A stretch of DNA of 64,000 nt from a virus (Duplodnaviria; Caudoviricetes). The stretch is taken from positions 484-64,483 of the IMG/VR virus record IMGVR_UViG_3300035208_003503; one strand, written 5' to 3'. The notes below the pieces were generated by a model, which was not told where the DNA came from, did not search any database, and was given only the letters and a program-made list of their open reading frames with translations. Made by a program: the position numbers and the translations under genes. Of this stretch, positions 40,603 through 64,000 are shown one piece after another. Position 1 is the first letter of the stretch; each line of letters opens with the position of its first letter.

Positions 40603-43600
40603 TTAGAAGAGAGGATCTTTCCTTGGGACTCTAACCATCCTTGAGTAATCTAGGTTGCCTAGATAGTTATATGCATTGGCTCCAAGTCCACCAGCAGCTG
40701 CTCCCATGAGACCTGTTCCAAGGTGCTTAAGAGACGGGCTTTTACCGCTTATCATATAATCTCCCAACATCTGACCACCACCTGCAAGTAGTCCACCTGC
40801 CGCGGCTCCAAGATAAGGATTTATAGCTCCGGGGTACATACTTGCGGGAAGTACTGTAGTACTGTCCTGCCCAAAGAAGTCTCTAAGCCATGAGTTTTTT
40901 CTGGTTGCTTCATCTGCTACTATACCTGCTCCGCCTACACCCATAAGACCTAGTGGAAGTTCTGCTAGGTTAGGTATATTTGGTACAGGACCAAGTTTAG
41001 GTACATTAGGATTAGCAATTTTGAAAGCGTCTCCACCCATTCCGTTTTTCTTGAACATAGAAGCTCCGAGTGCTCCTCCAAATAGACCGGCTTTTACAGG
41101 ATTATGAAGTATAGAGTTAACTATAGCTGAATCATAATCTCCTATTCCTAAAACACCAGTACCAAGAGCAGTGGCTCCACCAGCCTTCAATGCGCTTCTT
41201 ACCATACCTTGATCAAATCTTACTCTAGGGAGAGATCCACCATGTGAAAGAAGTGAGTTAGCTTTTGATCCTAAGCTACGAACTCCCTTACCAAGGCTGC
41301 CAGGTATGTGTTTCATTAAGGAACTACCTCTTCCGCCCATAGCAAGGCCGGTAGCCAATGCTGCTCCACCAAGTGTTATACCTGGAAGCTGTCTTTGAAC
41401 TCTGTCCCACCATCCATCACCTTCTTCGATGTTGGCAGCTATTTTATCCATGTATGGATTATACTCGTAATAGGAATTATTCTTATCTCTACCACCGAAA
41501 GCAGCGTTCATAGCCCCCACACCAAACAGTCCTGACCCAATTCTAGTAGCGTTTCTAAGAACCCTCTCTTTTTCAAATAGGTCCTTAGCAAATTTTAGCT
41601 GCGTTGGATCACCAGGGAACGCCTTTCTCATGTTCAAAAGATTTTTATAAGCATTGCTGGCTTCTGTTCCATAAACACGTTTTCCAAAAGTCTTTACCGC
41701 ATTCGGTGTTCCTTTAATAATAGGTGCTCCAACTTTAATTGCGTCATCCCACAGTCCTTTAGTAGCACCGAGTGCTCTTCCACCAAACTTTGCTATCTGT
41801 CCCCAGAAAGCAGTCTTGTCGTTATAGTAAGGATACTCGTGCTCAAGGATCATATTTCGGTCCATATAAGGATTGTAACCATTGTAGCTTGAAAACTTAT
41901 CTTTAAAATCCTGAGCGTAGTCAATGATCTGGTCATTATATTTATAACCAAGATGTCCGCCGCCTACTGCACCTAGTCCAGCACCAAGAAGTGCTCCTTG
42001 ATCACCATACACCATTCTGCCAAGTCCAGCACCCACTCCGGCTCCTAATAGAGCTCCTATACCTGCTGTCCCTTTTTTCCGGGCATACCAAGGTCTTTTC
42101 ATTTTATCGTATATGTATTTACCACCTAAAGCAGTGGCGCCAACACCGGCAGCTCCAATAGCAGCTTTACCAGCGGTGGATCCCCATACTTTTCCACCCA
42201 TCTTTGCAAGTTGTCCCCACAATGCAGTCTTGTCATTGTAGTAGTTGTAACCGCTGTAGCTGGAGAACTTATCTTTAAAATCCCCTGCATAACCTGCAAT
42301 GTCGTCACTGTAGTTATATCCCAAACCACCTCCGCCTACTGCACCTAGTCCAGCACCAAGAAGTGCTCCTTGATTTCCATACAGTCCTTTTCCAACACCG
42401 GCTCCAATACCTGCACCAAGAAGAGCTGATATACCCGCTATACCTTCTTTCTGAAGATACCAAGGTTTATTATATTTATCCCAAAGGTATTTACCTCCTA
42501 AACCAGCAGCAGTCAACGCAGCCAGTCCTATACCGGCCTTACCTGTTCTTGACCCAAGCATTTTCCTAAACATACTGGAACTACCCGGGGATGTATTAAT
42601 AGGAGGTATAAATTTAGGAGTTCCACGGGCAGCATCTAAAGTTCTACCGGCAGGTGCTTCACCGAGTCTTCCTGCTGCTCTTTTATCAAAATAAGGGTAG
42701 TAACCCCTATAGTTAGAAAGCGAATCAACAGTTCCAACAGTAGCTGCTGTACCAAGTGCTCCAGCACCAACTCCAACAGCAGTAGCTTGTCTTGTCATAC
42801 CCTGTAGTTTGATTGCTTCAGCCAACTTTTTATAGGCTTTCTCAACCGCGTTATATCTGGAATATGGGTTCTCAAGACCGGGAATGTTTTTAGGTAATTT
42901 GAGTATTTCAAGAGCATCCCTTCTACTCTTTACACCAGCACCACTGATAGCCTTAATGTAGTTCTTAACTCCGGCGGTCTTATCATCTTCACCAAACCAA
43001 TGAGCAAGTGTTTCTGAAACATTATTCGATGCTGCCAGTTTCTCCATGGCTCCTGGAAGTACTCCACGATCCTGGAGTGTCTGGATGTAATCGAGCTTTG
43101 CATTCTTATCTTCGATCTCATCTGTAAGACGCATAGCTTCTTTTAAAGCATTGTAGGTGACCGCAGATGAAGCAGCTTTATCGCTATCACCCGCCTCGAG
43201 TGCTGAAGAACCTTCGAATCTTACGACCTCAAGAAGTTCTTTCATGTTTTCAATACTAGCTAGACGGTCCATATAAACGCCTCCCATTTTCTTTTTATTT
43301 TGATTATTATTTGAACCTGATGCATATGTTTTCTCGACCTTTTCGAAATCCGTCTCATTGTGCTGTAGCTCTTTTGGTATACTACCAGCGCCTGCGCCTG
43401 TATCTATACTGGTTGATGGAGCAGGGGTTAGAAAATCTTTTGGTTGCGGATTTTTTGAGATAGACGCCGAGTCTTTAGGAGCTTTAATAGTACCAGAGTT
43501 TGCTGATACAGGGTCTTTCATACCTATAGGACTTAAATCTTGAGTAGTAGAAGGGTTACGATTGTTACTTGCTTCAGACGAGTACGATCTCCAGTATTCA

Positions 43601-43692
43601 TAAGGATTTCTATAGGGTGTAGAGCTCATCCCGTAGGCTTCCCCTTCCGCTAACTTGTCGTGGAAACGTTTCAACAGCATACCTTCCTCCAA
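40603..43692 (-). CDS. 1029-aa glycine-rich modular protein with repeated DKxA motifs (probable virion/internal protein)
   Basis: Glycine-zipper segments separated by YPYFDKRAA, YYNDKTA (x2) and YNPYMDKIAA; GGAGG SD. Confidence 0.75.
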   Translation of the reverse strand: MEEGMLLKRFHDKLAEGEAYGMSSTPYRNPYEYWRSYSSEASNNRNPSTTQDLSPIGMKDPVSANSGTIKAPKDSASISKNPQPKDFLTPAPSTSIDTGAGAGSIPKELQHNETDFEKVEKTYASGSNNNQNKKKMGGVYMDRLASIENMKELLEVVRFEGSSALEAGDSDKAASSAVTYNALKEAMRLTDEIEDKNAKLDYIQTLQDRGVLPGAMEKLAASNNVSETLAHWFGEDDKTAGVKNYIKAISGAGVKSRRDALEILKLPKNIPGLENPYSRYNAVEKAYKKLAEAIKLQGMTRQATAVGVGAGALGTAATVGTVDSLSNYRGYYPYFDKRAAGRLGEAPAGRTLDAARGTPKFIPPINTSPGSSSMFRKMLGSRTGKAGIGLAALTAAGLGGKYLWDKYNKPWYLQKEGIAGISALLGAGIGAGVGKGLYGNQGALLGAGLGAVGGGGLGYNYSDDIAGYAGDFKDKFSSYSGYNYYNDKTALWGQLAKMGGKVWGSTAGKAAIGAAGVGATALGGKYIYDKMKRPWYARKKGTAGIGALLGAGVGAGLGRMVYGDQGALLGAGLGAVGGGHLGYKYNDQIIDYAQDFKDKFSSYNGYNPYMDRNMILEHEYPYYNDKTAFWGQIAKFGGRALGATKGLWDDAIKVGAPIIKGTPNAVKTFGKRVYGTEASNAYKNLLNMRKAFPGDPTQLKFAKDLFEKERVLRNATRIGSGLFGVGAMNAAFGGRDKNNSYYEYNPYMDKIAANIEEGDGWWDRVQRQLPGITLGGAALATGLAMGGRGSSLMKHIPGSLGKGVRSLGSKANSLLSHGGSLPRVRFDQGMVRSALKAGGATALGTGVLGIGDYDSAIVNSILHNPVKAGLFGGALGASMFKKNGMGGDAFKIANPNVPKLGPVPNIPNLAELPLGLMGVGGAGIVADEATRKNSWLRDFFGQDSTTVLPASMYPGAINPYLGAAAGGLLAGGGQMLGDYMISGKSPSLKHLGTGLMGAAAGGLGANAYNYLGNLDYSRMVRVPRKDPLF
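41960..42374 (-). repeat. 43-bp identical repeat within a 124-codon internal duplication
   Basis: 41960-42002 equals 42332-42374 (encodes QGALLGAGLGAVGG). Confidence 0.85.
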
Positions 43693-43798: not shown

Positions 43799-44731
43799 TT
43801 AAATCTTAAAAGTTATGTCACAAAAATCACAATGAAATATTTTGGCGCCATCATCATCGTCTTTTAACACTTGGACTATTGGGTGCCCGCAGGACCCACA
43901 CAAAAACGACGAACATTCTTCACAAGTATGGGGTTCTGTAGTTCTTTCAAACCTACAGCCACAGTCACTACACTCTAAAATGTTGTCATCTTTATCATTA
44001 GTAACCTCCGGAGTTGTTATTATAGGTAGCAATCTACCAACCGGATCAAAGAACCTGAAGGAGTCGTCCTTAGGTACATACCAAATCCTAGTGCAACCAC
44101 CATCAGGTCTAGTATTAGACATAATAGCAGAGAGGGCCCTTCTTCTAGGAAAAAACAGTATTTCATCCTGAACCTCACCGATGTACCCCTGTCTCTTTCT
44201 ACGAAATGCAGAACCTCCTAGCTTGTAAGCGTGTATGTCACTATAATTAATTTGTCCTTCTATTACCATACTACTTGTGAAAGAATCAGAAGTTATTTCA
44301 GATTCCATCCTCATAATACCCTCGGTCTCAGACATAAATATTTCTGCAGTAGAGCTGGAAACAGCCAGCACATTCATCTTTGTGTAAGTTAACTTACTAG
44401 GTTCATTAGGATTACCGCCACCTTCACCTCCAGTATGTACCCAGACAGATCTCCCTACCCAATCAGCACAAGGCTCTCCAGTTAGTTCCCCTATAGTAAA
44501 TCCTGATAGATATGATAAGGTTAGGAGGAACCCAACGTCAGGGGTAACCTCACCAGATTCCATTAGAGATATCTGTGCTTGGGTCTTACCGGTAGATCGG
44601 GCTAACTCTGACTGAGACATTTTAACAGTTTCTCTTGCTCTCTTAACAGCAGCGCCTAGATTCTTAACAAGCAATCTTTCATACATCTCGTAGGGTAATA
44701 CCCTCTTTTCGTCTTGCATCTTCTCTTTCAT
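43799..44731 (-). CDS. XRE/Cro-C1 HTH transcriptional regulator with C-terminal zinc ribbons
   Basis: VKRARETVKMSQSELARSTGKTQAQISLMESGEVTP; C-terminal CSDC, CEEC, CGSC, CDFC. Confidence 0.85.
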   Translation of the reverse strand: MKEKMQDEKRVLPYEMYERLLVKNLGAAVKRARETVKMSQSELARSTGKTQAQISLMESGEVTPDVGFLLTLSYLSGFTIGELTGEPCADWVGRSVWVHTGGEGGGNPNEPSKLTYTKMNVLAVSSSTAEIFMSETEGIMRMESEITSDSFTSSMVIEGQINYSDIHAYKLGGSAFRRKRQGYIGEVQDEILFFPRRRALSAIMSNTRPDGGCTRIWYVPKDDSFRFFDPVGRLLPIITTPEVTNDKDDNILECSDCGCRFERTTEPHTCEECSSFLCGSCGHPIVQVLKDDDDGAKIFHCDFCDITFKI

Positions 44732-44767
44732 AATGCCATCTCCATATAAAATTATAAATAACGCATA

Positions 44768-44800
44768 TAACTATATACAGATAGTAATATAAATGTCAAC
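44768..44800 (-). promoter_or_regulatory. sigma70-like promoter for the XRE gene, divergent from the TGTTATAAG promoter at 44831
   Basis: Minus strand TTGACA-N18-TATAGT. Confidence 0.55.
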
Positions 44801-44878
44801 AAAAATATTAATCAAATTAATAAAGAAAACGTGTTATAAGAGTTTGTAGGATATTTAAACAACAATAAGGAGGATATT

Positions 44879-45220
44879 ATGCGTAGAACTACAAAAGAAC
44901 TCGAGACTGGTTTTCTTAACTTTATAAGGGGATTGAGTAATAACCTCAACCACCTTCATAAAGATATAAAAATCAGCTTCTCGTTCCTGGGAGATTTTAT
45001 TGAGCTGGAATCACCTGACCATAAGGTGAGTCTTAGCCCGGAAGATCTGGCCAGGCTCCTCGAACTTGATAGTGATTCATTTCTCACTAGGGCTATACAT
45101 ATAGCCTTCCGTGAGAAAGGGACCATAAGTTTCAAGGAAACGGAAGAGGGTTATAGTGACGTTTTCATAACTTGTGAAAAGTGTGAGAAGGTAACTGTAG
45201 CTCTTGATAGATTTGACTAA
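44879..45220 (+). CDS. hypothetical protein
   Basis: AAGGAGG SD; downstream of GTGTTATAAG. Confidence 0.6.
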   Translation: MRRTTKELETGFLNFIRGLSNNLNHLHKDIKISFSFLGDFIELESPDHKVSLSPEDLARLLELDSDSFLTRAIHIAFREKGTISFKETEEGYSDVFITCEKCEKVTVALDRFD

Positions 45221-45226
45221 CCTAAA

Positions 45227-45262
45227 ACGGGGGCTTCGGCCCCCTTTAAGTCCTTTTTTTTA
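45227..45262 (+). terminator. intrinsic terminator
   Basis: GGGGC-TTCG-GCCCC followed by T-runs. Confidence 0.8.
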
Positions 45263-45279
45263 TCAAAAACACGTCAAAA

Positions 45280-46080: not shown

Positions 46081-46128
46081 CTTTTTATTTAAGCTGTATT
46101 TTACTTCAAATTTTTTTTATAAGTAAAC

Positions 46129-46157: not shown

Positions 46158-46191
46158 AACTACGGTTTAGCTATTTATCTTGTGAAGAAAT

Positions 46192-46611: not shown

Positions 46612-46620
46612 GGGGTAGTT

Positions 46621-48661: not shown

Positions 48662-49830
48662 GTGTAGGTAAGGTTACTATAAATACGTCCATAAAGGATG
48701 TATCAGAGGGTAGGAAGTACAAACATCTTTTAAGATTTGACATAGCTAATCCTCTGTACTTCACAGAGTCAATAATGTCTAGTAACCCGGCAGCTTGTTT
48801 AAAGTTCCGTAGAAAATCTTTAACCGAACCTCTTAAGAACGACTTCTTAGGAGTTTGTAGCATAGACGACTTCATGACCCTTAGTGAATCTGGGGGAGGA
48901 ACAGGTGCCATAGATGAGATATTCAGATCCAGTAGTTTTTACGCTGAGTATTCAGATTACAATACTTCGTTAGCTGACCAGAAGAAAATGGAGTTGCAGG
49001 TATGGGATTTTTATAATAATCTCAATGCCTATACAGTTGCTGAGGACGGTGCTGAAGCCAATCGTAAGTACACATTCCCGGACTATACAGAGGAACTTCT
49101 TAATAGTTTGATAAGTCGCAGGAGACTTCTTATATTCCAGAATGCAACCGCTTCCGACACTATCAAGATAATTGAAAATGTCATTATACCGATGCTTTCA
49201 TCCAACTACACGTTATACGAGTCTTTAGATGAGGCTGTAGAGCTTCTCCTTAGCAACGCAGAAAGTCATAAAAATAACCTTGTTGATATGGTACAGTTGA
49301 AGGACGGGATAGTATCCGTACAAAGTAATCTTCAACGATTCAGTCAACTTATGCAGTTCGATTCTGAAAAGATGGCTAGGATACAGGGTAAAACCGCAAC
49401 TTTAAATACGTATCTTGAATCTGTTATGACCGATACTGACGATCTTGTAATAGCAAAGAACAGGGTAGCTGAAATATACGCAGAATCGAAGGTATCTGAC
49501 CCCGTTGCGTCTCCGGACGTTGATACTTTTCCTACAATAGCTTCCAAGGTTATGCCGGGAATAAGCTTTATAACAAGTGTTGAGACTGACTATTTCACTG
49601 ACCTTACAACTATAGATACTCTCGTAGATCTTATAGAGAAGTTCGGACAGAATCTTACTTCTGAAATAAAGACCAAAGAAGGTGAAGTTACTAGCCTTAA
49701 GGACGATATAGAAACCAGAAAAGCTGAGATACAGGGTATCGAGGCCAGACTTAGGAGCATAAGACCTTCAATAGATCTTGTTAATCCTGAGACTGCATGG
49801 TATTTAACAGTTAACGTAGATAATGGGTGA
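48658..49830 (+). CDS. coiled-coil hypothetical protein
   Basis: 390 aa with heptad-rich segments. Confidence 0.65.
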   Translation: MSVGKVTINTSIKDVSEGRKYKHLLRFDIANPLYFTESIMSSNPAACLKFRRKSLTEPLKNDFLGVCSIDDFMTLSESGGGTGAIDEIFRSSSFYAEYSDYNTSLADQKKMELQVWDFYNNLNAYTVAEDGAEANRKYTFPDYTEELLNSLISRRRLLIFQNATASDTIKIIENVIIPMLSSNYTLYESLDEAVELLLSNAESHKNNLVDMVQLKDGIVSVQSNLQRFSQLMQFDSEKMARIQGKTATLNTYLESVMTDTDDLVIAKNRVAEIYAESKVSDPVASPDVDTFPTIASKVMPGISFITSVETDYFTDLTTIDTLVDLIEKFGQNLTSEIKTKEGEVTSLKDDIETRKAEIQGIEARLRSIRPSIDLVNPETAWYLTVNVDNG

Positions 49831-51674
49831 TAAATATGACTGATACAGCTTACAATAGCCCGACGTATACAGTAGAAAATTATAAACGCATCTGCCAGTC
49901 CTATATGGTCCAGGCAGAGATGATACCCCATAACGATTTTGGGGAATACATAGATTTTATTACTAGGACTGTTGCATTCCATAGCGGACTTGCTGGGCCT
50001 ATATCAAAGGCTGCGGTATTCTTTTCGGACCCTATGCGTATTACTACTGGTGACAAACTTCTTGAAAAGAATGTCAATGCTATCTTCCGTGATCTTAAAG
50101 TTTTTTGGAACCAGTACAAGGCCTGGATGGGAGTATTTATGTATGACCAGGTAGGTATAATATACTTGCCAAAGCAGAACTTGTTCATGGAGTGCCCTGA
50201 ATGTAAGGAAACATTTCATATCAATGGAAACTCATACGACTATCCGTTTAAGATACAGTCGCTAGACTACGACAGGGACTCAGTTAGAAAACTTAAAAAT
50301 GATGCCAAGTTGCACAGTTACGAAAAGCGCAAGCACGCTACTAACTACGGGATAGGATGCGTATGCCCTGAGTGTAACACAAGTTTTATAGACACCCCTA
50401 GACAGGAATGGGATTTCAATTCTTCAGGAAGAATGATGGTTCTGAACCCTAAGATGTTCAAAGTTGAGACAAATGACGCTGGTGAAGATAGAATGATCAT
50501 AGACCCAAAATACTACGAAGGACCTTTGGCACTCGATAAAGAGATAGAAAGCTTTCATCTTAAAGGAGTACCTTGGAACTTGGCGGTTACATACGCGGCT
50601 AAGGACCGAGTTTATATCCCTGATGATAAATGGTATATGACTTTCAGCATGAGGGAGTACATTGGGGTAGGTAATGCAGGTGCAGGTATAGCACCCATAA
50701 TGTCCAGCGTATCAGATACAATATCCATGGATATCTTCAAGATGGGTAACGAAGGTCTTGCACTTTCCAAGATAGATCCACTTTATGTAGTATCACCTCA
50801 CAGTGTTAATAACCCAGCCTACGAGGGCATATCTCATCAGGATATGCGTGATTTTATGGTCGGTGGTATAAAAGCGCACCAGGAAGGGGACATAAACAGA
50901 ATACTTTATTCGCCTATTCCAGTGACAACTGATGCGCTATTCGGAGACGGAAAGAGATTTATGCATGTCCAGGAGTTCATAACTTTCCAGAACTTTGTTC
51001 TTGGAGGTCTTGGACTATCCGCGGATGCCCTCAATGGATCCTCTGGTTTTACGGCGGATCCGGTTATGTTCGAGGGTTGGAATAAACTGAGGCAGGAATT
51101 TAACTTCCAGTATACTGAGCTGGTAGAGAATGTTCTAAAGCTGGTATCACCAAAGTACTACGAGAACAGTAAGACTAGGGGTGAGAACGAAGTTAAAGCT
51201 ACGGTATGGATTCCGAATTTATCACAGCTTAGAGGCGGAATGGACCTGGCTAAGAAGTGGGAACTTATCGATCAGGAAAAACTTCCTTTTGATGAGTTTA
51301 CTTACGATCTTGGTATTCCTAAACCAGAGCTTTGGGAAGAATCCATTATAAATTCCATGAGGCAGCAGATGAAACTAGACCTTAAGAAAGGTAGGGTTGC
51401 TAAAAGACTTCATGAGACTGAAATGGAAAAAGATAATGCCGGTGGATCTGAGTCAGGACCAAACATGGCATTGGCCAGGAAGAACATACTAGATGAAGCA
51501 GAGTACTATGCTCAGGAACTTATGAATATGGACGACGGTCAAAGACGGACCTATCTTGCTCAGATTAGAGCTGAGGATTTTGTACTACATGCAGTTGTAA
51601 TGGAAAAGTTAAAGCAGTTTAGAAAGATGGACGAGACCCAATCTAAAGGTGAAGGGCAAGGACAACCACAGTAA
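49827..51674 (+). CDS. probable portal protein with a zinc-ribbon insertion
   Basis: 615 aa, portal-like size; positioned before neck and protease genes; CPEC...CPEC insertion; function inferred mainly from context. Confidence 0.45.
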   Translation: MINMTDTAYNSPTYTVENYKRICQSYMVQAEMIPHNDFGEYIDFITRTVAFHSGLAGPISKAAVFFSDPMRITTGDKLLEKNVNAIFRDLKVFWNQYKAWMGVFMYDQVGIIYLPKQNLFMECPECKETFHINGNSYDYPFKIQSLDYDRDSVRKLKNDAKLHSYEKRKHATNYGIGCVCPECNTSFIDTPRQEWDFNSSGRMMVLNPKMFKVETNDAGEDRMIIDPKYYEGPLALDKEIESFHLKGVPWNLAVTYAAKDRVYIPDDKWYMTFSMREYIGVGNAGAGIAPIMSSVSDTISMDIFKMGNEGLALSKIDPLYVVSPHSVNNPAYEGISHQDMRDFMVGGIKAHQEGDINRILYSPIPVTTDALFGDGKRFMHVQEFITFQNFVLGGLGLSADALNGSSGFTADPVMFEGWNKLRQEFNFQYTELVENVLKLVSPKYYENSKTRGENEVKATVWIPNLSQLRGGMDLAKKWELIDQEKLPFDEFTYDLGIPKPELWEESIINSMRQQMKLDLKKGRVAKRLHETEMEKDNAGGSESGPNMALARKNILDEAEYYAQELMNMDDGQRRTYLAQIRAEDFVLHAVVMEKLKQFRKMDETQSKGEGQGQPQ

Positions 51675-53511: not shown

Positions 53512-53513
53512 TC

Positions 53514-56266: not shown

Positions 56267-57151
56267 ATGAACATACCAGGTGGTCTTAAAGGGCTAGCCT
56301 TAGGCGCCGCACCCCTTTTGGGTTTAGGAGCCTATGGAGGCTATCGTTATTATGACGCAGTAAATAACCCAAGTCTAATGGAAAGTGCCTGGACAGGTTT
56401 AAAAAATAATTACCCAGCAGCAATAGGAGCAGGAGCACTTGGAGCATTAGGTGGTTATGGACTGGGAAGGTACTATAACGGACTTGGTTCTAGAATATCA
56501 GGAACACCTATGGAACGACTCCGTGGGTTCACAGCGCCACATCTTTTTCGTGGTATGGAGCAGGAGGTAGAGAATCTTCGTAATGAGTATGCTCAGAAGA
56601 TGGAACTACTTGGAGGGTCAGGATTAGGGGATATCCCATCAGAAGCCCTCAAATTTGATATACCGGATCTTCATAACACAGATAATATCGATCCGCTTAA
56701 TTTAGTCATTAAAGAAAAAACAGCGTCGCTAAGTATTAGCTTGGTAAGAAGAGCTGTACTTAACGAGATTTTTGATAAGAAGGCAGCTATAAACCCTAAT
56801 GTTTATAAGGGTTTAGCAGCAGGTCTTGGTCTGACTGCTCTTGGAACAGGAGCTTATAGTTTGGCAAGTCCTGCGTTAGCAGATATGCAGGCTAAAGCGG
56901 ATAGGAATGCTAAGATAAGAAAATATTTAGCGTACTCAGCACCTATTGGTCTTGCTCTTGGAGTAGGAGCTGGTGCTGGTTATTTAGGTGGAAGGTCTGC
57001 AGGAAGAAGTCAATTGGATGACTCCATGCAGTTAATGAGAGATCAGATGACTTACTCTGCTCAGAATGATTATTTTGATAGGGATCTTGCAAATACAGTC
57101 AGTGCATTAAAACAGAACGGGGCTTTAGGAGGTCAGTATGTCGGGCAATAA
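56267..57151 (+). CDS. glycine-zipper protein with KxA motifs
   Basis: GLALGAAPLLGLGAYGGY, AAIGAGALGALGGYGLG; KEKTAS and FDKKAA. Confidence 0.65.
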   Translation: MNIPGGLKGLALGAAPLLGLGAYGGYRYYDAVNNPSLMESAWTGLKNNYPAAIGAGALGALGGYGLGRYYNGLGSRISGTPMERLRGFTAPHLFRGMEQEVENLRNEYAQKMELLGGSGLGDIPSEALKFDIPDLHNTDNIDPLNLVIKEKTASLSISLVRRAVLNEIFDKKAAINPNVYKGLAAGLGLTALGTGAYSLASPALADMQAKADRNAKIRKYLAYSAPIGLALGVGAGAGYLGGRSAGRSQLDDSMQLMRDQMTYSAQNDYFDRDLANTVSALKQNGALGGQYVGQ

Positions 57152-57893
57152 GTTTAATAAAGATAGGAACGTTAAATTCATAAACAGCCCTCTGTATCGT
57201 CTCCTTGATGACTCTACGAGAGACAAGCTCGCTTCAACAATGGATGAAGAAGATAAAAAGGTTATAGCTGAATATGAAAGGATAGGTAAAGAAGCAAAAC
57301 AGCATCCGAGAGATGAAGTAGTTCTAATACTAGCAGCTACTCCCTGGGAACAGTTTGGTCCTAACGATAATGGGGACGCTCTTTACTCAAAACCTTTTTT
57401 TAAGATAAAACAGGACGCAACACTCCCTGTAACTCATCGGTCTTTCGAGACCAAAGCGATGATATCTAAAAATCATCAATACCAGACTCCGGATAAAGCT
57501 ATAGGAGGAATCCTTAAAGCTATATGGAACGAAAAGTACAAACGAGTCGAAGTACTCGCTATATATTACTGGAATAAGGCATTAAGTGAATGTAACAGGA
57601 TTCGTAAGAACAAGGCACTAATGTGTAGCATGGGTTACAGAATATGTTCTCCGGAACTTCCACCTGAATCAGGTGAGTACTGCTCTTATTGTGGTAAACA
57701 TGCCCGTAGAACCGAAGAAAGATGTTCGCACCTTTCCGGACTTGTAGGTTCTATAGTAGATGGCATCCCAGTTTTTATGATGAATGGGAAAGGGTTCTTC
57801 GTGGACTTGAGTTCTATAGTAATACCTGGAGACTTTAACTCCAGGACTATATGGAGATTGGACCCTAATAGTGGAGACGACTCTGAGAAATAA
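57138..57893 (+). CDS. putative prohead (capsid maturation) protease
   Basis: GPNDNGD, KNH, RVEV, CSMG, CSYCG..CSHL and DLSSIVIPGD fit a His/Ser maturation-protease layout with a zinc-finger insertion; located in the head module. Confidence 0.55.
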   Translation: MSGNKFNKDRNVKFINSPLYRLLDDSTRDKLASTMDEEDKKVIAEYERIGKEAKQHPRDEVVLILAATPWEQFGPNDNGDALYSKPFFKIKQDATLPVTHRSFETKAMISKNHQYQTPDKAIGGILKAIWNEKYKRVEVLAIYYWNKALSECNRIRKNKALMCSMGYRICSPELPPESGEYCSYCGKHARRTEERCSHLSGLVGSIVDGIPVFMMNGKGFFVDLSSIVIPGDFNSRTIWRLDPNSGDDSEK

Positions 57894-57983: not shown

Positions 57984-59876
57984 ATGAGCGTTTTAGATTA
58001 CAAGAGAAGAAAGGAACTTGAGAGACAGGGGGTCGATCCATCTCAGGTAGACAAAAGAGCGGCTGAAGGAGATCCTTGGTATCTTTCACAGGCTGGAACA
58101 ACAGGACTCGGTGCAGGTATTGGCGCACTAGGCGGCGGACTTGCTGGGGGCCTTATGGGCGGTGATTGGGGGAGTGCTGGAATGGGAGCCCTTGGTGGCG
58201 GACTTGCCGGCGGACTTGCCGGGTACTACGGTAATGAAATGCTTCAGGACCCCATAGCAGCAGCAGCTGCAAAGATCGAAGAGATCGAGGAAATCCTCAA
58301 GCAGAATATTCCTGGTGTAAATAGAATGGAACTTGAGTCTGTTAAGGCTCAGTTGCAGGCTTTTCTGGGAGAAAATGGCTATGTTGTAAAACAGAGCGCA
58401 TACAATGGAGCAAATGGTATGAATTGGCTTTACGATAAAATGGCGGCTGCAGATCAGATCGCTAAAGAACAGGGTGGAATGCCTCCTCAGGGCGGAATGC
58501 CTCAGGGCCAGCCTTCACCTGAAGAAATGGCAATGATGGAACAGCAGATGGCTATGCAGGGTGGACAACCTGGAATGGATCCGGGAATGGACCAGAAGAT
58601 TCAGGAAGACCTTATGATAACTGAGCAGGTGCTCGGATCAGATCTTCCCCCAGAACAGAAAGTCCAAGTCCTTGAACAGGAAGGTATTGAACCAGAAATA
58701 ATTCAGGCAGCTGTAGGAGCTATCGTTGAAGAAGCTCAGGCAGTTGAAGCTGCTATGGGTGGACAGATGGGCGTAATGCCTCAGGGACAGCCTTCACCGG
58801 AAGAAATGGCTATGATTGAACAGCAGATGGCTATGCAGGGTGGACAGCCTCAAGGACAGCCTTCACCTGAAGAAATGGCTATGATTGAACAGAACGCTGC
58901 TAACCAGGAAGTAGATGCAATAGCTGCATACTACGGTATTAATCCAGCTTGGTTGCATAACGAAGTTGATAAAGTAGCTGCTTATAATGCAGGGTACAAT
59001 CCGTATTTTGATAAAGTAGCTGCTTACAACAATATGTACAATCCTTATGGATACCCGGTGTACGACAAAAGAGCAGCTGACTGGATGGACAACTTTAGCA
59101 ATGCAGCAAGCAGTGCAAGAGAAGGTTTTGGCCAGATTGGCGACTCAATAGGTAACTACTGGGGAAATAAAGTTAACCAGGTTGGCAGCGCAGTAGCAGA
59201 TACTGCTAATACCGTAGGTAACTACTGGGGAAATAAAGCTAGTCAGGTTGGAAATGCTGTAAGTAGAGGTGCACAGGCTGCAAACGAATGGGGCGGACAG
59301 CAGGCTATAAATGCAGAGAATGCTTGGAATAGAGGAACTGCTGCAGTAGGTAGAGGTGCACAGGCTGCAAACGAATGGGGCGGACAGCAGGCTATAAATG
59401 CAGAGAATGCAGTCCGTAGCGGTGCTAGGGCTGTAGGTAAGTTTGGTAACGATACTATGAATGACCTTGCACGAGGTAAAGAAGAAATGATGAAAATGCC
59501 GGGAAGAGCTTGGGCCGCAGCTGACAATATTCCTGGAGTACCTCAGTTTAAAGAAGCTGGTAGACAGGCTTATCAGGGTGGACAGAATGTTGCTCAGTCA
59601 GTAGGAAACTACTGGGGTAATGCAGCTGATCAGGGGATGGCAGCAGTAGGAAGAGGTGTTGATGCAGTAGGTCAGTACGCTGATAACTTCGGTAATCAGA
59701 TGGGACAGGCTGGACAGAGTTTCGGCAACGCGTATGACGAAGTAGGAAAGGGGTTTGATAGGATAGGTTATGGCTTATCTGGAAACCAAGGACCTAAACC
59801 AGCCAACAGAACAGCTGACAAGAAACAGGCTTTCAGAGGATACTACCCTCCTTACTACTACAGAAATTTCAGATAA
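57984..59876 (+). CDS. low-complexity (Q/M/G/P, N/G/W) virion-region protein with DKxA motifs
   Basis: VDKRAA, YDKMAA, VDKVAA, FDKVAA and YDKRAA; QPSPEEMAM repeats; TTGCAA-N17-TATCCT promoter upstream. Confidence 0.75.
   Translation: MSVLDYKRRKELERQGVDPSQVDKRAAEGDPWYLSQAGTTGLGAGIGALGGGLAGGLMGGDWGSAGMGALGGGLAGGLAGYYGNEMLQDPIAAAAAKIEEIEEILKQNIPGVNRMELESVKAQLQAFLGENGYVVKQSAYNGANGMNWLYDKMAAADQIAKEQGGMPPQGGMPQGQPSPEEMAMMEQQMAMQGGQPGMDPGMDQKIQEDLMITEQVLGSDLPPEQKVQVLEQEGIEPEIIQAAVGAIVEEAQAVEAAMGGQMGVMPQGQPSPEEMAMIEQQMAMQGGQPQGQPSPEEMAMIEQNAANQEVDAIAAYYGINPAWLHNEVDKVAAYNAGYNPYFDKVAAYNNMYNPYGYPVYDKRAADWMDNFSNAASSAREGFGQIGDSIGNYWGNKVNQVGSAVADTANTVGNYWGNKASQVGNAVSRGAQAANEWGGQQAINAENAWNRGTAAVGRGAQAANEWGGQQAINAENAVRSGARAVGKFGNDTMNDLARGKEEMMKMPGRAWAAADNIPGVPQFKEAGRQAYQGGQNVAQSVGNYWGNAADQGMAAVGRGVDAVGQYADNFGNQMGQAGQSFGNAYDEVGKGFDRIGYGLSGNQGPKPANRTADKKQAFRGYYPPYYYRNFR
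59263..59410 (+). repeat. 61-bp perfect direct repeat (59263-59323 and 59350-59410)
   Basis: Encodes RGAQAANEWGGQQAINAENA twice. Confidence 0.9.
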
Positions 59877-59887: not shown

Positions 59888-61063
59888 ATGTACCCCTATT
59901 ACACAGATAAAATAGCGGCCTCTAAAGTAGAGGCTGCTAGAAATATAGCTAAGGCGGTTGCAAATGCCGCAGGAAGACTTCCCGGCCAGGCTAAAAACTT
60001 AGCTAAAGGAGTTGGGGAAGGTTTTAAGGCTTTTGATGGAACAATGGGCCAGGGTGCTACTGACTTGATGAGAGGTTCTCTAGTAGATCCTTTAAGAAGA
60101 GTAGGAGCAGGCATCGGCTACGCAGCTAAGCCTGTAGCAGGATTAGGGGGCTTAGGCGCCGTAACCGGTGGCGGATTCGGCGGTGTTGGATCTATCTACG
60201 ATTATATCAGAGCCTCAGAAGCAGAAAGAGAAGTACTGGGTGGATTTCCGGGAATGATCGGTAGAGGAATAGGCGGCGGAGCTTTAAGAGGTGGCGCTAT
60301 AGGAGCCTTAGGTGGATTAGGAGCTGGTATAGGTCTCAGAGGTGCACTACTTAATCCGGGGTCTAATCGTGCGGCACTAGGAGCATTGGCTGGTACTGGT
60401 GGACTTATTGGAGCACCAATAGCAGGTCTTACTGGTGATTACACCGGTCTTGACCAGGTAAGAGATATAACGTCTTCTTACTACGGTTACAATCCTTACA
60501 TGGATAAAATAGCTGCCGGAGAAGTTGTTCCTACCAATAACGTTGCAGTAGCAAGAGAGGCAGCAATGCCTTTCACACGCACCTTAGGAGTTTTGGGAGG
60601 CCTTGGGCTAGGAGCTCAGATAGGTGCAGGACTTTCAGACCCTTGGGACAGAGACGCCTTAAAAAGGAATGCAATTATAGGGGCCTTGGGTGGTGGAGCA
60701 GCTGGGTATTTCGGTATGCCTTGGCTTATGGATGCTTACCATACTTATAGAAGAGCTTACCCAACACCAATGGTAATAGGTGATATGGGAGGTATTAAAA
60801 ATGCTTCTTACAACAGCTACAATCCTTACATGGATAAAATAGCCGCTTCTCAACCTTGGTACATGGATCCTCATAATCAACAGCTTATGGGCGGAGGCGT
60901 AGGCCTTACTGCTGGTAATATGCTTGGTCAGAGACTATTCGGTGATGCAGGCGGACTTATAGGTGCCGGTCTCGGTGCTTATGGGGGCTATGCAGCAACT
61001 CCTTGGGCTAGAGAAACAGCTTTACCGTATCTCCAAGAACAGTGGAAAAAATATTTAGGATAA
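59888..61063 (+). CDS. three-module glycine-zipper protein with DKIAA motifs
   Basis: YPYYTDKIAA, YNPYMDKIAA (x2). Confidence 0.75.
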   Translation: MYPYYTDKIAASKVEAARNIAKAVANAAGRLPGQAKNLAKGVGEGFKAFDGTMGQGATDLMRGSLVDPLRRVGAGIGYAAKPVAGLGGLGAVTGGGFGGVGSIYDYIRASEAEREVLGGFPGMIGRGIGGGALRGGAIGALGGLGAGIGLRGALLNPGSNRAALGALAGTGGLIGAPIAGLTGDYTGLDQVRDITSSYYGYNPYMDKIAAGEVVPTNNVAVAREAAMPFTRTLGVLGGLGLGAQIGAGLSDPWDRDALKRNAIIGALGGGAAGYFGMPWLMDAYHTYRRAYPTPMVIGDMGGIKNASYNSYNPYMDKIAASQPWYMDPHNQQLMGGGVGLTAGNMLGQRLFGDAGGLIGAGLGAYGGYAATPWARETALPYLQEQWKKYLG

Positions 61064-61116: not shown

Positions 61117-61944
61117 ATGAACTATCGTGATAAAATAGCGATGAACATGAACTTCAGAAATATGGCCCTTGCAAGTCTATTGGGTGCCGGAGGCGCCGGT
61201 GGACTTATGTATGGGGTAGATAATTTGTATAATAAATTCAAACCGGAACCTAGACTGCCTTGGTATTTGACACCTGGCGGGTCACTTGCTTTGGGTGCAG
61301 GACTGGGAGCTGGAATGGGAGCTGGAGCAGGTATGCTTTACGGGCCAGCTGTGGGCGCGGGTCTTGGAGGTATTACAGGTGGTGTTGCTGGTTATTACGG
61401 AAATAAGCTTCTAAATCAAGCGCTTCTTGCAGAAGAACAACGTCTTGTGAATCCTTATTTCGCTGCCGGGGGTTCAGCCCTAGGTGGAATAGCTGGCGCT
61501 GCTCTAGGAGCGCTCGGCAAAAAAGGGGGCATGGCAAGGATGGCTATTGGTGCAGGTTTGGGTGGCCTCACTGGTGGTACTGCTGCCGGCCTCGCCGGGG
61601 GCGATGTTTTAGGATCTTCAAGAGGATATAATCCTTATGTTGATAAAGTAGCCATAAGTAATATGTTAATAGGTGCTGTATTAGAGCGTAAGGGTTTAGG
61701 TAAATTTCATCCTCCAATGCATAGATTCAGAGAAAATTTAGCGCTAGATCTTAAAGGGATTATAGACAAATATCCTAAAATAGGGTCTAGGATAATGGAT
61801 AGTATGCCGAGATTTAAGTCTCATGGAGAGCTTGGCCCGTTACATTATGTAATGGATACTATGCCAGTTGGTACTAAGGTAGACACATATTATGCTCTCC
61901 AACGCGCTTTACGAGATGTTATTTCCCCACCTTTTAAATGGTAG
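61117..61944 (+). CDS. glycine-zipper protein with DKxA motifs
   Basis: YRDKIA, PWY, GAGLGAGMGAGAG and YNPYVDKVA. Confidence 0.75.
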   Translation: MNYRDKIAMNMNFRNMALASLLGAGGAGGLMYGVDNLYNKFKPEPRLPWYLTPGGSLALGAGLGAGMGAGAGMLYGPAVGAGLGGITGGVAGYYGNKLLNQALLAEEQRLVNPYFAAGGSALGGIAGAALGALGKKGGMARMAIGAGLGGLTGGTAAGLAGGDVLGSSRGYNPYVDKVAISNMLIGAVLERKGLGKFHPPMHRFRENLALDLKGIIDKYPKIGSRIMDSMPRFKSHGELGPLHYVMDTMPVGTKVDTYYALQRALRDVISPPFKW

Positions 61945-62041: not shown

Positions 62042-64000
62042 ATGTCTTTATTTCTACAGTACAAAATGAAGAAGTTGATGGATAAGAGGGCTGCGGACTA
62101 TTCTTCTAAAGGAGTCCTGGGGAAAGATGGGGTTATAGATGAAGAGGTCGATGAGAATGGTAATAATGCGCGTCAAAGGAAGCTTCTTAAGGATGCAGAA
62201 GCTAGGCTTAATGCATCCAAAAAACCAGCTTACCCTACCCCGGATGCAGATGCTAAGCATAGTAAAGATAAACCTGTTACTTTAGATAAGTTTCCTAAGG
62301 ATCGTAAACTAGAGTTTTTTTCTGATAAGACCCAAAACTGGAATGGTGGAATGCCTTTTCTTCAGTACAAAATGCAGAAGTTGATGGATAAGCGGGCAGC
62401 ATTTGATTATGCTGCTATTGCGGCTAGAGCTAGCGGGTCTCATAAAAAAACAGATGAGGAGGTTGATAAGATAGATAAGAAAAAGCAGGCTAGAGAGACA
62501 AAGGTAACTAATACGTTGGTCCAAGGATTAACCGGAGGATCAGCAGGTAAGAAACCAGGAGCAACTTCCGAAGGTATTGATAAGAAAAAAGACACCTCTA
62601 TCGGGGGAGAAGGAAGTGTGAACGCCAATCTTACGAGATCTAAGAAGAAATTCTTAGACACTACTACCAAAACCCAAAATTGGAACGGTGGAATGCCGTT
62701 TCTTCAGTATAAAGCACAGCAGGCAGAAGCACTTAATAGAGACAAAACAGCGGAAATGGACCCTCAAAGAGTTCAAATATCGTTGGATCCAAGCGTGTAT
62801 CTAACTCCATCCCCCGATCAGGAAGCTCTTAGACAGGCTATGATCGATAAGACCCGTTATTTTGGTGCCGGAATGGGCGGACTAATGGGAGCTACCGTGG
62901 GTGGAATGGCAGGAATGATGCATGGAAGAGGTTCAATGACTAATCTTTTCAGTGCTTTTGGCGCTAAAGATAGGATGAAACGTGAAGCTCTCATTGGTGC
63001 ATTAGTTGGCGGAGTAGGCGGAGCAGGTCTTGGGTACTATGGAGCACCTGCTATGTCTGAGTTTGCATCAGATTTCAGTCAAGCTTACCCTCAGGGTGTT
63101 GCATCAGTAGCACCAAGTAAGATGGCAGCTTATAATGGTTACAATCCTTACCTCGACAAACTTGCAGCTGATGCAATGAGATACGAGTTGGATCCTGCTA
63201 CGGATTCAATGTATAGAAATTCAGTACCTTTACCGGCGGAGTACCAGAGTCTGGTACCAGAAGGACAGCAGTATATGGTAGTAGGGCAGACAATGACTGG
63301 TGATTTTATAGTAGAAGACGCTCAGGGTAACGCCTATATATTCGACCATGCGGCCAGTAACCCGTTTGAAGACGGGGAACTTATACCGTTGGAACGTAAT
63401 GCTAGACAGCTTAGGGAAGATATGCAGGCAATGTATGCCCAGAACCAGGGAAAATCAGGGTACCACATGGGTTTCCTAGACGATGCACAGCCTCAGTTCT
63501 CAAGTCAGTTTCAGAGCAACCCAGTAGGAGGAGCTCTTATGGGATTGCCTAGAAATGTTAATATGGGATCAGCCTTAGTTCCTGCACTTGAAAATTACCC
63601 AGGAGGCCAGGACTTTATAAATAATCAAATGGGTATCAGCAATACTCCTTCAACAGGGGGTAGAGTAGCAGGTGGATTATTCGGTGGAGCACTTGGTTTA
63701 GCAGCTGGAGGTTTACTAGGTGGACTTTCCGGAGCTATAGGGTCAAGAGTGGCCGGAGCATCAAGGGATGACCTAAATCGCAATGCTCTTATCGGAGCAG
63801 GAATAGGCGGACTGGCTGGAGCTCTTGGGGGTGGATACCTCGGTGCAGCACCCGGAGCTGACTGGTTAGCTCAGAATGAATACAACAGGGCTATCCAAAG
63901 ATATCCCGAGGATATGCTGTCTGAAAGTATGAACCCGTATGGATCTGAAGATCCCGCAGAACTCGAAAGAATAAGAGAAATAGGTAATAGAGCTATGTCT
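62042..64000 (+). CDS. DKxA-family modular protein, open to the window end (not in the supplied ORF track)
   Basis: Manual translation from ATG 62042 shows no stop to 64000; MDKRAA x2, RDKTA, YNPYLDKLAA and glycine zippers. Confidence 0.8.
   Translation, partial: MSLFLQYKMKKLMDKRAADYSSKGVLGKDGVIDEEVDENGNNARQRKLLKDAEARLNASKKPAYPTPDADAKHSKDKPVTLDKFPKDRKLEFFSDKTQNWNGGMPFLQYKMQKLMDKRAAFDYAAIAARASGSHKKTDEEVDKIDKKKQARETKVTNTLVQGLTGGSAGKKPGATSEGIDKKKDTSIGGEGSVNANLTRSKKKFLDTTTKTQNWNGGMPFLQYKAQQAEALNRDKTAEMDPQRVQISLDPSVYLTPSPDQEALRQAMIDKTRYFGAGMGGLMGATVGGMAGMMHGRGSMTNLFSAFGAKDRMKREALIGALVGGVGGAGLGYYGAPAMSEFASDFSQAYPQGVASVAPSKMAAYNGYNPYLDKLAADAMRYELDPATDSMYRNSVPLPAEYQSLVPEGQQYMVVGQTMTGDFIVEDAQGNAYIFDHAASNPFEDGELIPLERNARQLREDMQAMYAQNQGKSGYHMGFLDDAQPQFSSQFQSNPVGGALMGLPRNVNMGSALVPALENYPGGQDFINNQMGISNTPSTGGRVAGGLFGGALGLAAGGLLGGLSGAIGSRVAGASRDDLNRNALIGAGIGGLAGALGGGYLGAAPGADWLAQNEYNRAIQRYPEDMLSESMNPYGSEDPAELERIREIGNRAMS

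What the first reader, a model, noticed from the sequence alone, without database searches (positions are those of the whole stretch)
40603..64000. Family of polyprotein-like virion proteins: glycine-zipper modules separated by a (YNPY)xDKxA motif
Seen: more than 20 DKxA/EKxA sites across at least six genes (40603, 56267, 57984, 59888, 61117, 62042), and one at the N-terminus of the protease candidate itself (RDKLAS). Many are preceded by Y-rich YNPY(M/F/V/L). The intervening modules are amphipathic or hydrophobic GxxxG-rich helices, often introduced by a PWY motif. Known: prohead proteases of large phages cleave many internal head proteins at short motifs (T4 gp21, phiKZ gp175), and glycine zippers mediate helix oligomerisation in membranes. 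Inference: precursors are targeted into the prohead by the YNPY-DKxA signal and cut into many small membrane-active peptides that are ejected to build a trans-envelope channel or act on the host membrane.
Basis: partly seen in the sequence, partly recalled or inferred. Interest (0 to 1): 0.85.

Follow-up and report, generated by a model that had tools for sequence, protein, structure and literature searches.

The report
Head-protease cut motif in glycine-zipper phage proteins
In this uncultured large phage, the short tag Asp-Lys-x-Ala marks the head-maturation protease itself and six glycine-rich neighbouring proteins, most likely as the sites where the protease cuts them into 70-280-residue pieces inside the capsid; no cut has been measured.

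Summary
D-K-x-A occurs 24 times in seven genes (expected 1.3) and never in the other 87 ORFs (expected 5.1). The extended form is G-Y-N-P-Y-x-D-K-x-A-A. GxxxG periodicity, PWY and NPY are also strongly enriched.

Gene 57138 is a prohead protease. Its high-confidence model matches T4 gp21 (Z 9.6) and herpesvirus proteases, and invariant His113 and Ser164 align with gp21 His85 and Ser140.

Its N-terminal D-K-x-A is invariant in 16 close homologues. K and A are kept in 118 and 120 of 123 diverse homologues. In 107 remote homologues, K-x-A-[SAG] is enriched 4.4-fold and flanks the catalytic domain.

Metagenomic relatives repeat D-K-x-A (49 observed, 4 expected), often at aligned positions or after short N-terminal leaders.

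Best reading: this is a T4-like "load and clip" system with a different motif, probably cut after Ala. Cleavage, packaging and ejection are all inferred.

The products would be mostly 70-280 residues, not many small peptides. Membrane action is plausible but untested.

This scan already noted the K-x-A and glycine-zipper theme on other DNA (at least 64 genomes). This D-specific, YNPY-extended clade had no look-alike there. I found no paper describing the motif.

The parts
57138..57893 (+). Prohead (head-maturation) serine protease, 251 aa, stand-alone form
   Evidence: AF2 model built on 123 sequences, pLDDT 90.8. VIA-align gives T4 gp21 5jbl Z 9.6 and VZV protease Z 8.4. BFVD gives 128 hits at E<=1e-3, many named prohead protease, including phage G gp19. 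Homologues hit phrog_18299 with E down to 5e-14. Invariant H113 and S164 align with gp21 H85 and S140.
57222..57233 (+). D-K-L-A site in the protease's own N-terminal tail (residues 29-32); proposed self-cleavage site
   Evidence: D29, K30 and A32 are invariant in 16 homologues of 48-78% identity while the flanks vary. K is kept in 118 of 123 and A in 120 of 123 diverse homologues. The site lies in the low-confidence tail, residues 1-35.
40603..43692 (-). 1029-aa polyprotein-like glycine-zipper protein next to the large terminase gene; 8 D-K-x-A sites and 1 E-K-x-A site; contains a tandem module duplication
   Evidence: Sequence and sites. Pfam Gly-zipper_Omp 28.4 bits against a cut-off of 25. 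Residues 340-490 and 491-628 are 60% identical, and both units end in D-K-T-A.
56267..57151 (+). 294-aa glycine-zipper protein just upstream of the protease; 1 D-K-x-A site and 1 E-K-x-A site; no N-terminal leader
   Evidence: It is absent from the closest relative (L003). Unrelated Gly-rich ORFs stand at the same position in L006, L007, L008 and L009.
57984..59876 (+). 630-aa protein directly after the protease. Order of parts: leader, D-K-R-A, PWY glycine zipper, D-K-M-A, acidic repeat-rich (scaffold-like) middle, three close D-K-x-A sites, Gly/Asn/Trp-rich repeats
   Evidence: the middle module has net charge -25. The sites are positionally conserved in orthologues from L003, L004, L006, L008 and L010 while the flanks diverge. 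Internal repeats.
59888..61063 (+). 391-aa glycine-zipper protein: a 10-aa leader (MYPYYTDKIA) followed by three modules of 199, 110 and 72 aa, joined by YNPYMDKIAA
   Evidence: No homologue was found beyond itself.
61117..61944 (+). 275-aa protein: an 8-aa leader (MNYRDKIA), a 171-aa module with four glycine-zipper helices, YNPYVDKVA, then a 96-aa module that is not Gly-rich
   Evidence: The Atlas neighbours are viral hypothetical proteins and Gly-zipper clusters, which are leads only.
62042..64000 (+). Protein of more than 653 aa, cut by the contig end. A repeated leader unit (FLQYKMxKLMDKRAA) heads two basic modules, followed by glycine-zipper modules.
   Evidence: The repeat units are 41% identical over 122 aa.
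49827..51674 (+). Probable portal protein (context: start of the head module)
   Evidence: ESM Atlas features and structure point to Portal_Mu and Phage_portal clusters, with TM up to 0.67. This is a lead, not a proof. It contains no D-K-x-A.
38920..40593 (-). Large terminase subunit (context)
   Evidence: phrog_675 at 3.8e-28 and Pfam GpA_ATPase.

Best explanation
The window is part of an uncultured phage of roughly 150 kb. Gene 57138 encodes its prohead protease, with the T4 gp21 / herpesvirus assemblin fold and a His113/Ser164 active site.

The tetrapeptide D-K-x-A is this protease's recognition motif. It is a clade-specific sharpening of a K-x-A-(S/A/G) rule shared by a very large, mostly uncultured protease family that includes phage G gp19, Salmonella phage Arash gp222 and Vibrio phage D69.

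Proposed sequence of events:
1. Six glycine-rich proteins (40603, 56267, 57984, 59888, 61117, 62042) are co-assembled into the prohead core.
2. The protease removes its own N-terminal tail and their short N-terminal leaders.
3. It then cuts them at internal YNPY-x-D-K-x-A joints into about 20 pieces of 70-280 residues. Most pieces carry one to four glycine-zipper helices.

I propose the scissile bond follows Ala (P3 = Lys, P1 = Ala). This keeps the P3-x-P1 architecture of T4 (L/I-x-E), phiKZ/SPN3US (A/S/G-x-E) and assemblin ((V/L/I)-x-A|S).

The pieces are too large to leak out of the shell. Most probably they stay in the head as internal proteins and leave with the DNA. Part of 57984 probably acts as scaffold.

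Shown here: the motif statistics, the protease fold, and the link between motif and protease by conservation. Inferred: cleavage, the exact bond, packaging and ejection. Membrane insertion of the zipper modules after ejection is a further inference that I put at about 0.3.
For: Motif enrichment and exclusivity:
- 24 D-K-x-A sites against 1.3 expected in seven genes, and 0 against 5.1 expected elsewhere.
- Diverse codons at the sites.

Protease identity:
- pLDDT 90.8 model.
- T4 gp21 Z 9.6 and VZV protease Z 8.4.
- The top Foldseek PDB hits are all herpesvirus proteases.
- 128 BFVD hits, many named prohead protease.
- phrog_18299.
- H113 and S164 are invariant and align with gp21 H85 and S140.

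Link between motif and protease:
- Its own N-terminal D-K-x-A is invariant in 16 homologues within a variable, disordered tail.
- K is kept in 118 of 123 and A in 120 of 123 homologues of 23-37% identity.
- In 107 remote homologues, K-x-A-[SAG] occurs 376 times against 85 expected. The reversed control motifs are not enriched. Sites peak in the first 40 residues and just after the catalytic domain, and are nearly absent inside it.
- D before the Lys (P4 if the cut follows Ala) at the protease's own site is confined to this clade (16 of the 18 D's in the alignment). It is the same clade whose neighbouring proteins use D-K-x-A.

Relatives:
- 49 D-K-x-A against 4.0 expected in loci L003-L010.
- Sites concentrate in Gly-rich ORFs beside the protease and often follow 5-25-residue leaders.
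- Sites are positionally conserved in orthologues of 57984.

Module logic:
- Tandem duplications have unit ends that are the motif.
- A leader unit is repeated inside 62042.

Cultured distant relatives:
- The head-module proteins of Arash and D69 are full of (L/M/V)-(E/D/V)-K-x-A-(S/A). Both major capsid proteins carry G-L-(V/T)-K-E-A-G-A-A at residue 27.
- Arash gp220-gp225 were detected in purified virions (PMC10585845).

Gene context: terminase, probable portal and protease lie in a head module. Phage G gp19 lies between the portal and the major capsid gene.
Against: - No cleavage, packaging or ejection has been measured for this phage or, as far as I could find, for any member of the protease family.
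- The residue after Ala is variable here (A, S, G, E, K, L, F, I, M). This is looser than the strict Ser of herpesvirus sites, so the bond could instead follow Lys.
- The Arash virion table lists 100% sequence coverage for several motif-rich proteins. If that figure is taken at face value, cutting after Ala is incomplete there. The preparation also contained many non-structural enzymes.
- In cluster C mycobacteriophages, which are remote family members, the motif is only weakly enriched.
- The major capsid gene lies beyond the contig end, so its expected site could not be checked.
- The substrates are low-complexity and have no detectable homologues, so their function rests on composition alone.
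Confidence: 0.65

Rival explanations
1. The glycine-zipper proteins are only assembly-core (scaffold) components. The zippers drive self-association of the core inside the prohead. The protease cuts at D-K-x-A to dismantle the core, and the fragments have no role after assembly, so there is no membrane or ejection function.
For: - 57984 lies directly after the protease, where scaffold genes usually are. It has an acidic, repeat-rich middle with net charge -25.
- Most remote homologues are protease fused to a long C-terminal extension rich in K-x-A sites, which is the classical protease-scaffold arrangement.
- Multiple internal cuts are what T4 gp22 undergoes (established knowledge).
- The zipper helices are only weakly hydrophobic, with KD19 1.0-1.58.
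Against: - The predicted fragments are mostly 70-280 aa. They are far larger than the peptides that escape through capsid pores in T4 or HK97, so they would remain inside.
- Six different zipper proteins totalling more than 3,200 aa are far more than a scaffold needs.
- They evolve and swap rapidly: 56267 is absent from the closest relative, and there is no BLAST similarity between positional analogues. That is more typical of cargo or host-interaction proteins than of scaffolds.
Confidence: 0.2
2. D-K-x-A (with YNPY) is an uncleaved docking motif. It is a short linear peptide that binds the protease, portal or shell interior to recruit proteins into the prohead, and no cutting happens at that position.
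For: - The motif is shared by the protease tail and its neighbours.
- The aromatic YNPY extension looks more like a binding epitope than a typical protease subsite.
- The Arash table lists full coverage for motif-rich proteins.
Against: - In remote homologues the sites bracket the catalytic domain exactly where self-release sites lie in T4 gp21, phiKZ gp175 and herpesvirus assemblin precursors (plus established knowledge).
- Sites occur after very short N-terminal leaders and at the joints of duplicated modules, which is the pattern of processing sites.
- A fixed P3-x-P1-like spacing with a small residue matches the specificity architecture of this protease superfamily.
Confidence: 0.1
3. The motif is only a conserved linker inherited by repeated duplication of one ancestral glycine-zipper module, with no relation to the protease. 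Alternatively, the 40603 product is simply a tape measure or tail protein.
For: - Tandem duplications exist.
- 40603 has a weak hit to a tape-measure PHROG (1.4e-07), and Atlas structure neighbours include tape measure clusters.
Against: - The motif is invariant in the protease itself, which is not a zipper protein.
- It occurs in non-homologous contexts: basic non-zipper modules of 62042, the acidic module of 57984, and short leaders.
- The tape-measure hit covers only the zipper region. The gene lies next to the terminase, not among tail genes.
Confidence: 0.05

Closest known systems
Phage T4 prohead protease gp21 with the capsid-targeting-sequence proteins (IPI, IPII, IPIII, Alt) and core proteins gp22, gp67 and gp68
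   Same: - Same protease fold (Z 9.6 to 5jbl), and the catalytic His and Ser align.
- The protease gene lies in the head module.
- Substrates carry short N-terminal leaders that end in the motif.
- Several substrates have multiple internal sites.
- The protease itself carries the motif.
   Different: - The motif is (D)-K-x-A instead of (L/I)-x-E.
- The substrates are multi-module, polyprotein-like glycine-zipper proteins, not single small basic internal proteins.
- The leaders share no sequence beyond the motif.
- The protease has an invariant CxxC...CxH cluster that I do not know from gp21.
- None of the processing has been measured.
phiKZ gp175 and SPN3US gp245 prohead proteases and their ejection or inner-body proteins (PMC10052503, PMC7411985)
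   Same: Large phage heads contain many proteins cut at a three-residue motif, with multiple sites within propeptides. The products stay in the head and are ejected.
   Different: - The motif there is (A/S/G)-x-E, with cleavage after Glu.
- Cleavage there mostly removes N-terminal propeptides rather than cutting a chain into several retained modules.
- The substrates there are not glycine-zipper proteins.
Herpesvirus assemblin (maturational protease), which cuts (V/L/I)-x-A|S at the release and maturation sites
   Same: - Related fold: VZV protease Z 8.4, and all top Foldseek PDB hits are herpesvirus proteases.
- Ala followed by a small residue (Ser in 75 of 123 family members).
- Sites flank the catalytic domain and recur in the attached scaffold part.
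   Different: - The residue two before Ala is Lys rather than a hydrophobic residue.
- The residue after Ala is variable in this phage.
- Cutting after Ala is my inference, not a measurement.
Pfam glycine-zipper membrane domains (PF13488 Gly-zipper_Omp, PF13441 YMGG, PF05433 Rick_17kDa/2TM) and the zipper segments of phage tape measure proteins
   Same: GxxxGxxxG periodicity. One module passes the PF13488 cut-off. Atlas neighbours include these families.
   Different: - Most modules fall below the Pfam cut-offs.
- There are no lipoprotein signals.
- The modules sit in head-module genes and are bounded by a protease motif.
- Membrane insertion is untested.

Membership tests
Prohead (capsid maturation) serine protease, T4 gp21 / assemblin fold | The characteristic fold | tested here: met
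   A pLDDT 90.8 model matches 5jbl at Z 9.6 (rmsd 2.7 over 126 residues) and 1vzv at Z 8.4. It has 128 BFVD matches at E<=1e-3, many named prohead protease.
Prohead (capsid maturation) serine protease, T4 gp21 / assemblin fold | Catalytic His and Ser conserved, in that order | tested here: met
   H113 and S164 are invariant in 123 homologues. hhalign places them on T4 gp21 H85 and S140 (the score itself is weak, E 0.08). That these two gp21 residues are catalytic is from my memory of the literature.
Prohead (capsid maturation) serine protease, T4 gp21 / assemblin fold | The gene lies in the head module, between the portal and major capsid genes | tested here: inconclusive
   A probable portal lies 5.5 kb upstream, but the major capsid gene is beyond the contig end. 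In phage G the homologue gp19 lies between portal gp14 and capsid gp27. In Arash it lies 2.5 kb before the capsid gene.
Prohead (capsid maturation) serine protease, T4 gp21 / assemblin fold | Proteolytic activity on head proteins and on itself | not testable with these tools
   This needs expression or virion proteomics.
T4-type capsid-targeting-sequence / internal protein system | A short N-terminal leader that ends in the protease motif | tested here: met
   Five of the six proteins and the protease have D-K-x-A at residues 5-29. The same holds in relatives, for example the shared MFYDLRDKLA leaders in L006.
T4-type capsid-targeting-sequence / internal protein system | Packaging into the prohead, removal of the leader, and ejection with the DNA | not testable with these tools
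   The only indirect support is that motif-rich head-module proteins of the distant relative Arash were detected in virion preparations (PMC10585845).
Pfam glycine zipper (PF13488 / PF13441 / PF05433) | Score above the curated cut-off | tested here: inconclusive
   The 40603 product scores 28.4 against a cut-off of 25 for PF13488, so it passes. The 59888 and 62042 products score 16-19 against 28.9 for PF13441, so they are below. The others have no hit. The GxxxG periodicity is strong in all of them.
Tail tape measure protein | Full-length similarity and a position among tail genes | tested here: not met
   The phrog_167 match (1.4e-07) covers only residues 504-690, which is the zipper region. 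The gene abuts the terminase on the minus strand.

The most novel reading that the evidence does not exclude
A very large, mostly uncultured clade of tailed phages uses an unrecorded head-protease code, K-x-A cut after Ala as in herpesviruses. The code is used to load and cut apart swappable polyprotein cargo. In this phage the cargo is a set of about 20 glycine-zipper modules. After ejection they insert into the host envelope, either to build the DNA conduit or to permeabilise the membrane. On this reading the capsid works as a delivery vehicle for protease-matured pore-forming modules.
Probability: 0.25. Interest if true: 0.8.

Novelty: new variant of a known kind. Interest (0 to 1): 0.6.

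Why it matters
If the rule holds, it has three uses.
- It gives a simple sequence key, K-x-A (here D-K-x-A), for reading which proteins are loaded into and processed inside the heads of a large, almost unstudied group of phages. The protease family has 1,680 representative proteins at E<=0.001.
- It links the specificity of a phage protease clade to that of herpesvirus assemblin.
- It offers a natural leader-plus-cut-site system for packaging foreign proteins into capsids.

The glycine-zipper modules would be candidates for the proteins that open the host envelope for large phages. That step is poorly understood. All of this is directly testable by co-expressing two genes.

Tried and rejected
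An 80.8-kb contig carrying the same protease, and so probably the major capsid gene, could not be fetched.
- **Scans for relatives:** Viral-contig scans with the protease or its alignment found no relatives, and neither did genome contigs. megablast against cultured phages found nothing.
- **First structure model:** the model built on 16 sequences was poor (pLDDT 52) and was replaced.
- **PDB by sequence:** the protease profile found nothing meaningful, and the Arash capsid protein found nothing.
- **Complex prediction** of the protease with a 40-residue substrate stretch gave no verdict (score 0.04). This counts neither way.
- **Homology search with 59888** returned only itself, because Gly-rich words saturate the candidate list.
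- **PHROG and Pfam scans** of the other head-module ORFs and of L004's downstream ORFs gave nothing useful.
- **Arash supplement:** it holds annotation only, with no peptide lists, so cleavage could not be read from it.
- **Literature searches** for the motif in a prohead context found nothing.
- **Covariation test:** across remote homologues, the residue before the Lys at the protease's own site showed only weak covariation with the same position at its other sites.
- **Rejected reading, DNA-level repeat:** the codons at the sites are diverse.
- **Rejected reading, signal-peptidase-like A-x-A site:** Lys at position -3 does not fit.
- **Rejected reading, 40603 as a tape measure protein:** see the membership test.

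Full report
**What the DNA is.** The window is almost the whole of a 64.5-kb IMG/VR virus record that CheckV rates as 42% complete, so it is a fragment of an uncultured phage of roughly 150 kb. The first 37 kb hold small, mostly orphan plus-strand genes. The finding's region holds these features:
- a large terminase subunit at 38920-40593, minus strand (phrog_675, 3.8e-28);
- a 1029-aa gene beside it at 40603-43692, minus strand;
- a regulator and an IS200-like gene;
- a plus-strand head module starting with a probable portal at 49827-51674 (Atlas leads to portal clusters) and running to the contig end.

**Check of the observation.** I translated the seven named genes and a greedy set of 94 ORFs.
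- D-K-x-A occurs 24 times, all in the seven genes. Per-protein shuffles give 1.33 expected, with a maximum of 8 in 1,000 shuffles.
- The other 87 ORFs (16,276 aa) have none, against 5.06 expected. Only 0.2% of shuffles were that low.
- Extended forms are even more extreme: Y-x-D-K-x-A 11 against 0.06 expected, and P-Y-x-D-K-x-A 7 against about 0.
- The logo is G-Y-N-P-Y-x-D-K-x-A-A.
- The 24 sites use 21 different 12-mers and mixed codons, so selection acts on the peptide, not on a DNA repeat.
- The glycine-zipper description holds. G-x3-G is the most enriched spacing (150 against 79 expected, z 9.6). GxxxGxxxG occurs 71 times against 12.3 expected. The 40603 product passes Pfam's threshold for Gly-zipper_Omp.
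- PWY (5 against 0.1 expected) precedes a zipper each time. NPY occurs 13 times against 0.5 expected.

**The protease.**
- The 57138 product alone hits phrog_18299 (head maturation protease) only weakly. By tblastn it hits Bacillus phage G gp19, Vibrio phage D69 and Salmonella phage Arash gp222.
- Sixteen homologues of 48-78% identity exist in metagenomes. A profile search found 1,680 representative proteins at E<=0.001.
- Most of these are 450-650 aa: an N-terminal protease domain plus a long extension. They hit phrog_18299 with E down to 5e-14.
- With a 123-sequence alignment, AlphaFold gave a pLDDT 90.8 model whose first 35 residues are disordered.
- VIA-align ranks T4 gp21 first (5jbl, Z 9.6), followed by varicella-zoster (Z 8.4) and cytomegalovirus proteases. 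The top Foldseek PDB hits are all herpesvirus proteases. BFVD returns 128 matches, many named prohead protease.
- N76, D80, H113, S164, C182, C185 and C196 are invariant, and H198 nearly so.
- hhalign puts H113 and S164 on T4 gp21 H85 and S140. From memory of the literature, these are the catalytic pair.
- I regard the identification as a prohead protease as secure.

**Link between motif and protease.**
- In the 16 close homologues, D29, K30 and A32 are invariant within an otherwise variable N-terminal tail.
- Across 123 homologues of 23-37% identity, K is kept in 118, A in 120, and the next residue is Ser in 75. The residue before K varies (E, V, D, I, T). 16 of the 18 D's belong to this clade.
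- In 107 remote homologues, K-x-A-[SAG] occurs 376 times against 85 expected. The reversed controls are not enriched. The sites pile up in the first 40 residues and at residues 200-280, just past the catalytic domain, and are almost absent inside it.
- That is the layout of self-release sites in T4 gp21, phiKZ gp175 and herpesvirus assemblin precursors (established knowledge).

**Relatives.** Eight metagenomic loci carry related proteases.
- Their ORFs hold 49 D-K-x-A against 4.0 expected. The sites concentrate in Gly-rich genes flanking the protease and often sit 5-25 residues from the start. For example, two adjacent L006 genes both begin MFYDLRDKLA.
- Orthologues of 57984 keep the sites at aligned positions while the surrounding sequence diverges.
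- Conserved neighbours such as 53514 and 55706 are 40-70% identical between loci. The zipper proteins show no BLAST similarity, and 56267 has no counterpart in the closest relative. 59888 has no homologue in 5.8 billion proteins.
- In cultured distant relatives, the Arash gp220-225 and D69 0268-0273 proteins are dense with (L/M/V)-(E/D/V)-K-x-A-(S/A). Both major capsid proteins have G-L-(V/T)-K-E-A-G-A-A at residue 27.
- Arash gp220-225 were detected in virion preparations (PMC10585845). That preparation also contained many enzymes, and no peptide-level data are available.
- Cluster C mycobacteriophages carry the domain at the start of a 1,511-aa protein, with only weak motif enrichment.

**Anatomy of the substrates.** Cutting at every D-K-x-A gives 31 pieces. 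Ten are 8-42 aa (N-terminal leaders and short linkers) and 21 are 72-278 aa.
- Most long pieces carry one to four zipper helices of modest hydrophobicity (best 19-residue Kyte-Doolittle mean 1.0-1.58).
- Net charges range from +10 to -25.
- Module duplication respects the motif. In the 40603 product, residues 340-490 and 491-628 are 60% identical and both end in D-K-T-A. In 62042, two basic modules are each headed by FLQYKMxKLMDKRAA.
- The 57984 product, directly after the protease, has an acidic, repeat-rich middle that looks like a scaffold.

**Mechanism.** I conclude with confidence about 0.65 that D-K-x-A is the recognition site of the 57138 protease. On this reading the six proteins are prohead-core or internal proteins that lose their leaders and are cut into modules during maturation.
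- I propose cutting after Ala. The superfamily's known specificities all have a P3-x-P1 form: L/I-x-E in T4, A/S/G-x-E in phiKZ and SPN3US (PMC10052503), and (V/L/I)-x-A|S in herpesviruses (from memory). K-x-A followed by a small residue fits that form.
- The variable residue after Ala in this phage leaves a cut after Lys possible.
- The fragments are too large to escape the shell, so they probably remain inside and leave with the DNA.
- Whether the zippers then enter host membranes (about 0.3) or only hold the core together is open.

**Comparison and novelty.**
- Functionally this is the T4 capsid-targeting and internal-protein logic, and the phiKZ/SPN3US ejection-protein logic. It has a different motif and multi-module glycine-zipper precursors.
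- I found no paper describing a K-x-A rule for prohead proteases, within the limits of the held library.
- Earlier agents of this scan reported the K-x-A and glycine-zipper theme on other DNA: 67 notes in at least 64 genomes. Those notes are unchecked AI notes and are not independent evidence.
- This protease had no look-alike among them.
- The invariant D and the YNPY extension are particular to this clade.
- I class the finding as a new variant of a known kind.

**Limits.**
- Complex prediction gave no verdict.
- No experiment exists for any step after the sequence statistics.

Noticed in passing
window 57681-57731 (57138 protease residues 182-198): The protease has a CxxC-x10-CxH cluster (C182, C185, C196, H198). 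It is invariant or nearly so in 123 homologues and looks like a zinc knuckle inside the protease fold. I do not know this feature from T4 gp21 or the herpesvirus proteases. H198 could alternatively be a third catalytic residue.
   Followed up: partly
window 1-40593 and 43799-56257 (the 87 ORFs outside the family): D-K-x-A is absent from all the other ORFs (0 against 5.06 expected; 0.2% of shuffles were that low). [DE]-K-x-A is also low (4 against 11.1 expected). This may be avoidance of the protease motif across the whole proteome.
   Followed up: partly
window 56267-57151; L003:2708-4046: The glycine-zipper gene just upstream of the protease has no counterpart in the closest relative, where the 55706 homologue abuts the protease. 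Other relatives hold unrelated Gly-rich ORFs at that slot. The slot seems to be a swap site for cargo genes.
   Followed up: partly
window 58539-58884 (57984 product, residues about 186-300): The acidic middle of the protein after the protease contains three copies of a unit of about 30 residues, PSPEEMAM(I/M)EQQMAMQGGQP. The C-terminal half has further Trp/Gly/Asn-rich repeats (GNYWGNK...).
   Followed up: partly
L002:15765-16688 (Arash gp226) and L012:15588-16571 (D69 0275): The major capsid proteins of two cultured distant relatives share G-L-(V/T)-K-E-A-G-A-A at residue 27. This predicts a propeptide of about 29 residues that could be checked by proteomics.
   Followed up: no
L013:8950-13485 (Mycobacterium phage Alice gp90): In cluster C mycobacteriophages and some Gordonia and Rhodococcus phages, this protease domain is the N-terminus of a protein of about 1,500 aa annotated as hypothetical. 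209 Mycobacterium phage records hold it.
   Followed up: partly
window 43799-44731 (-): A 310-aa protein has an N-terminal HTH_3 domain and a weak FYVE-like zinc-finger match at its C-terminus. It lies between the 40603 gene and the long non-coding stretch.
   Followed up: no
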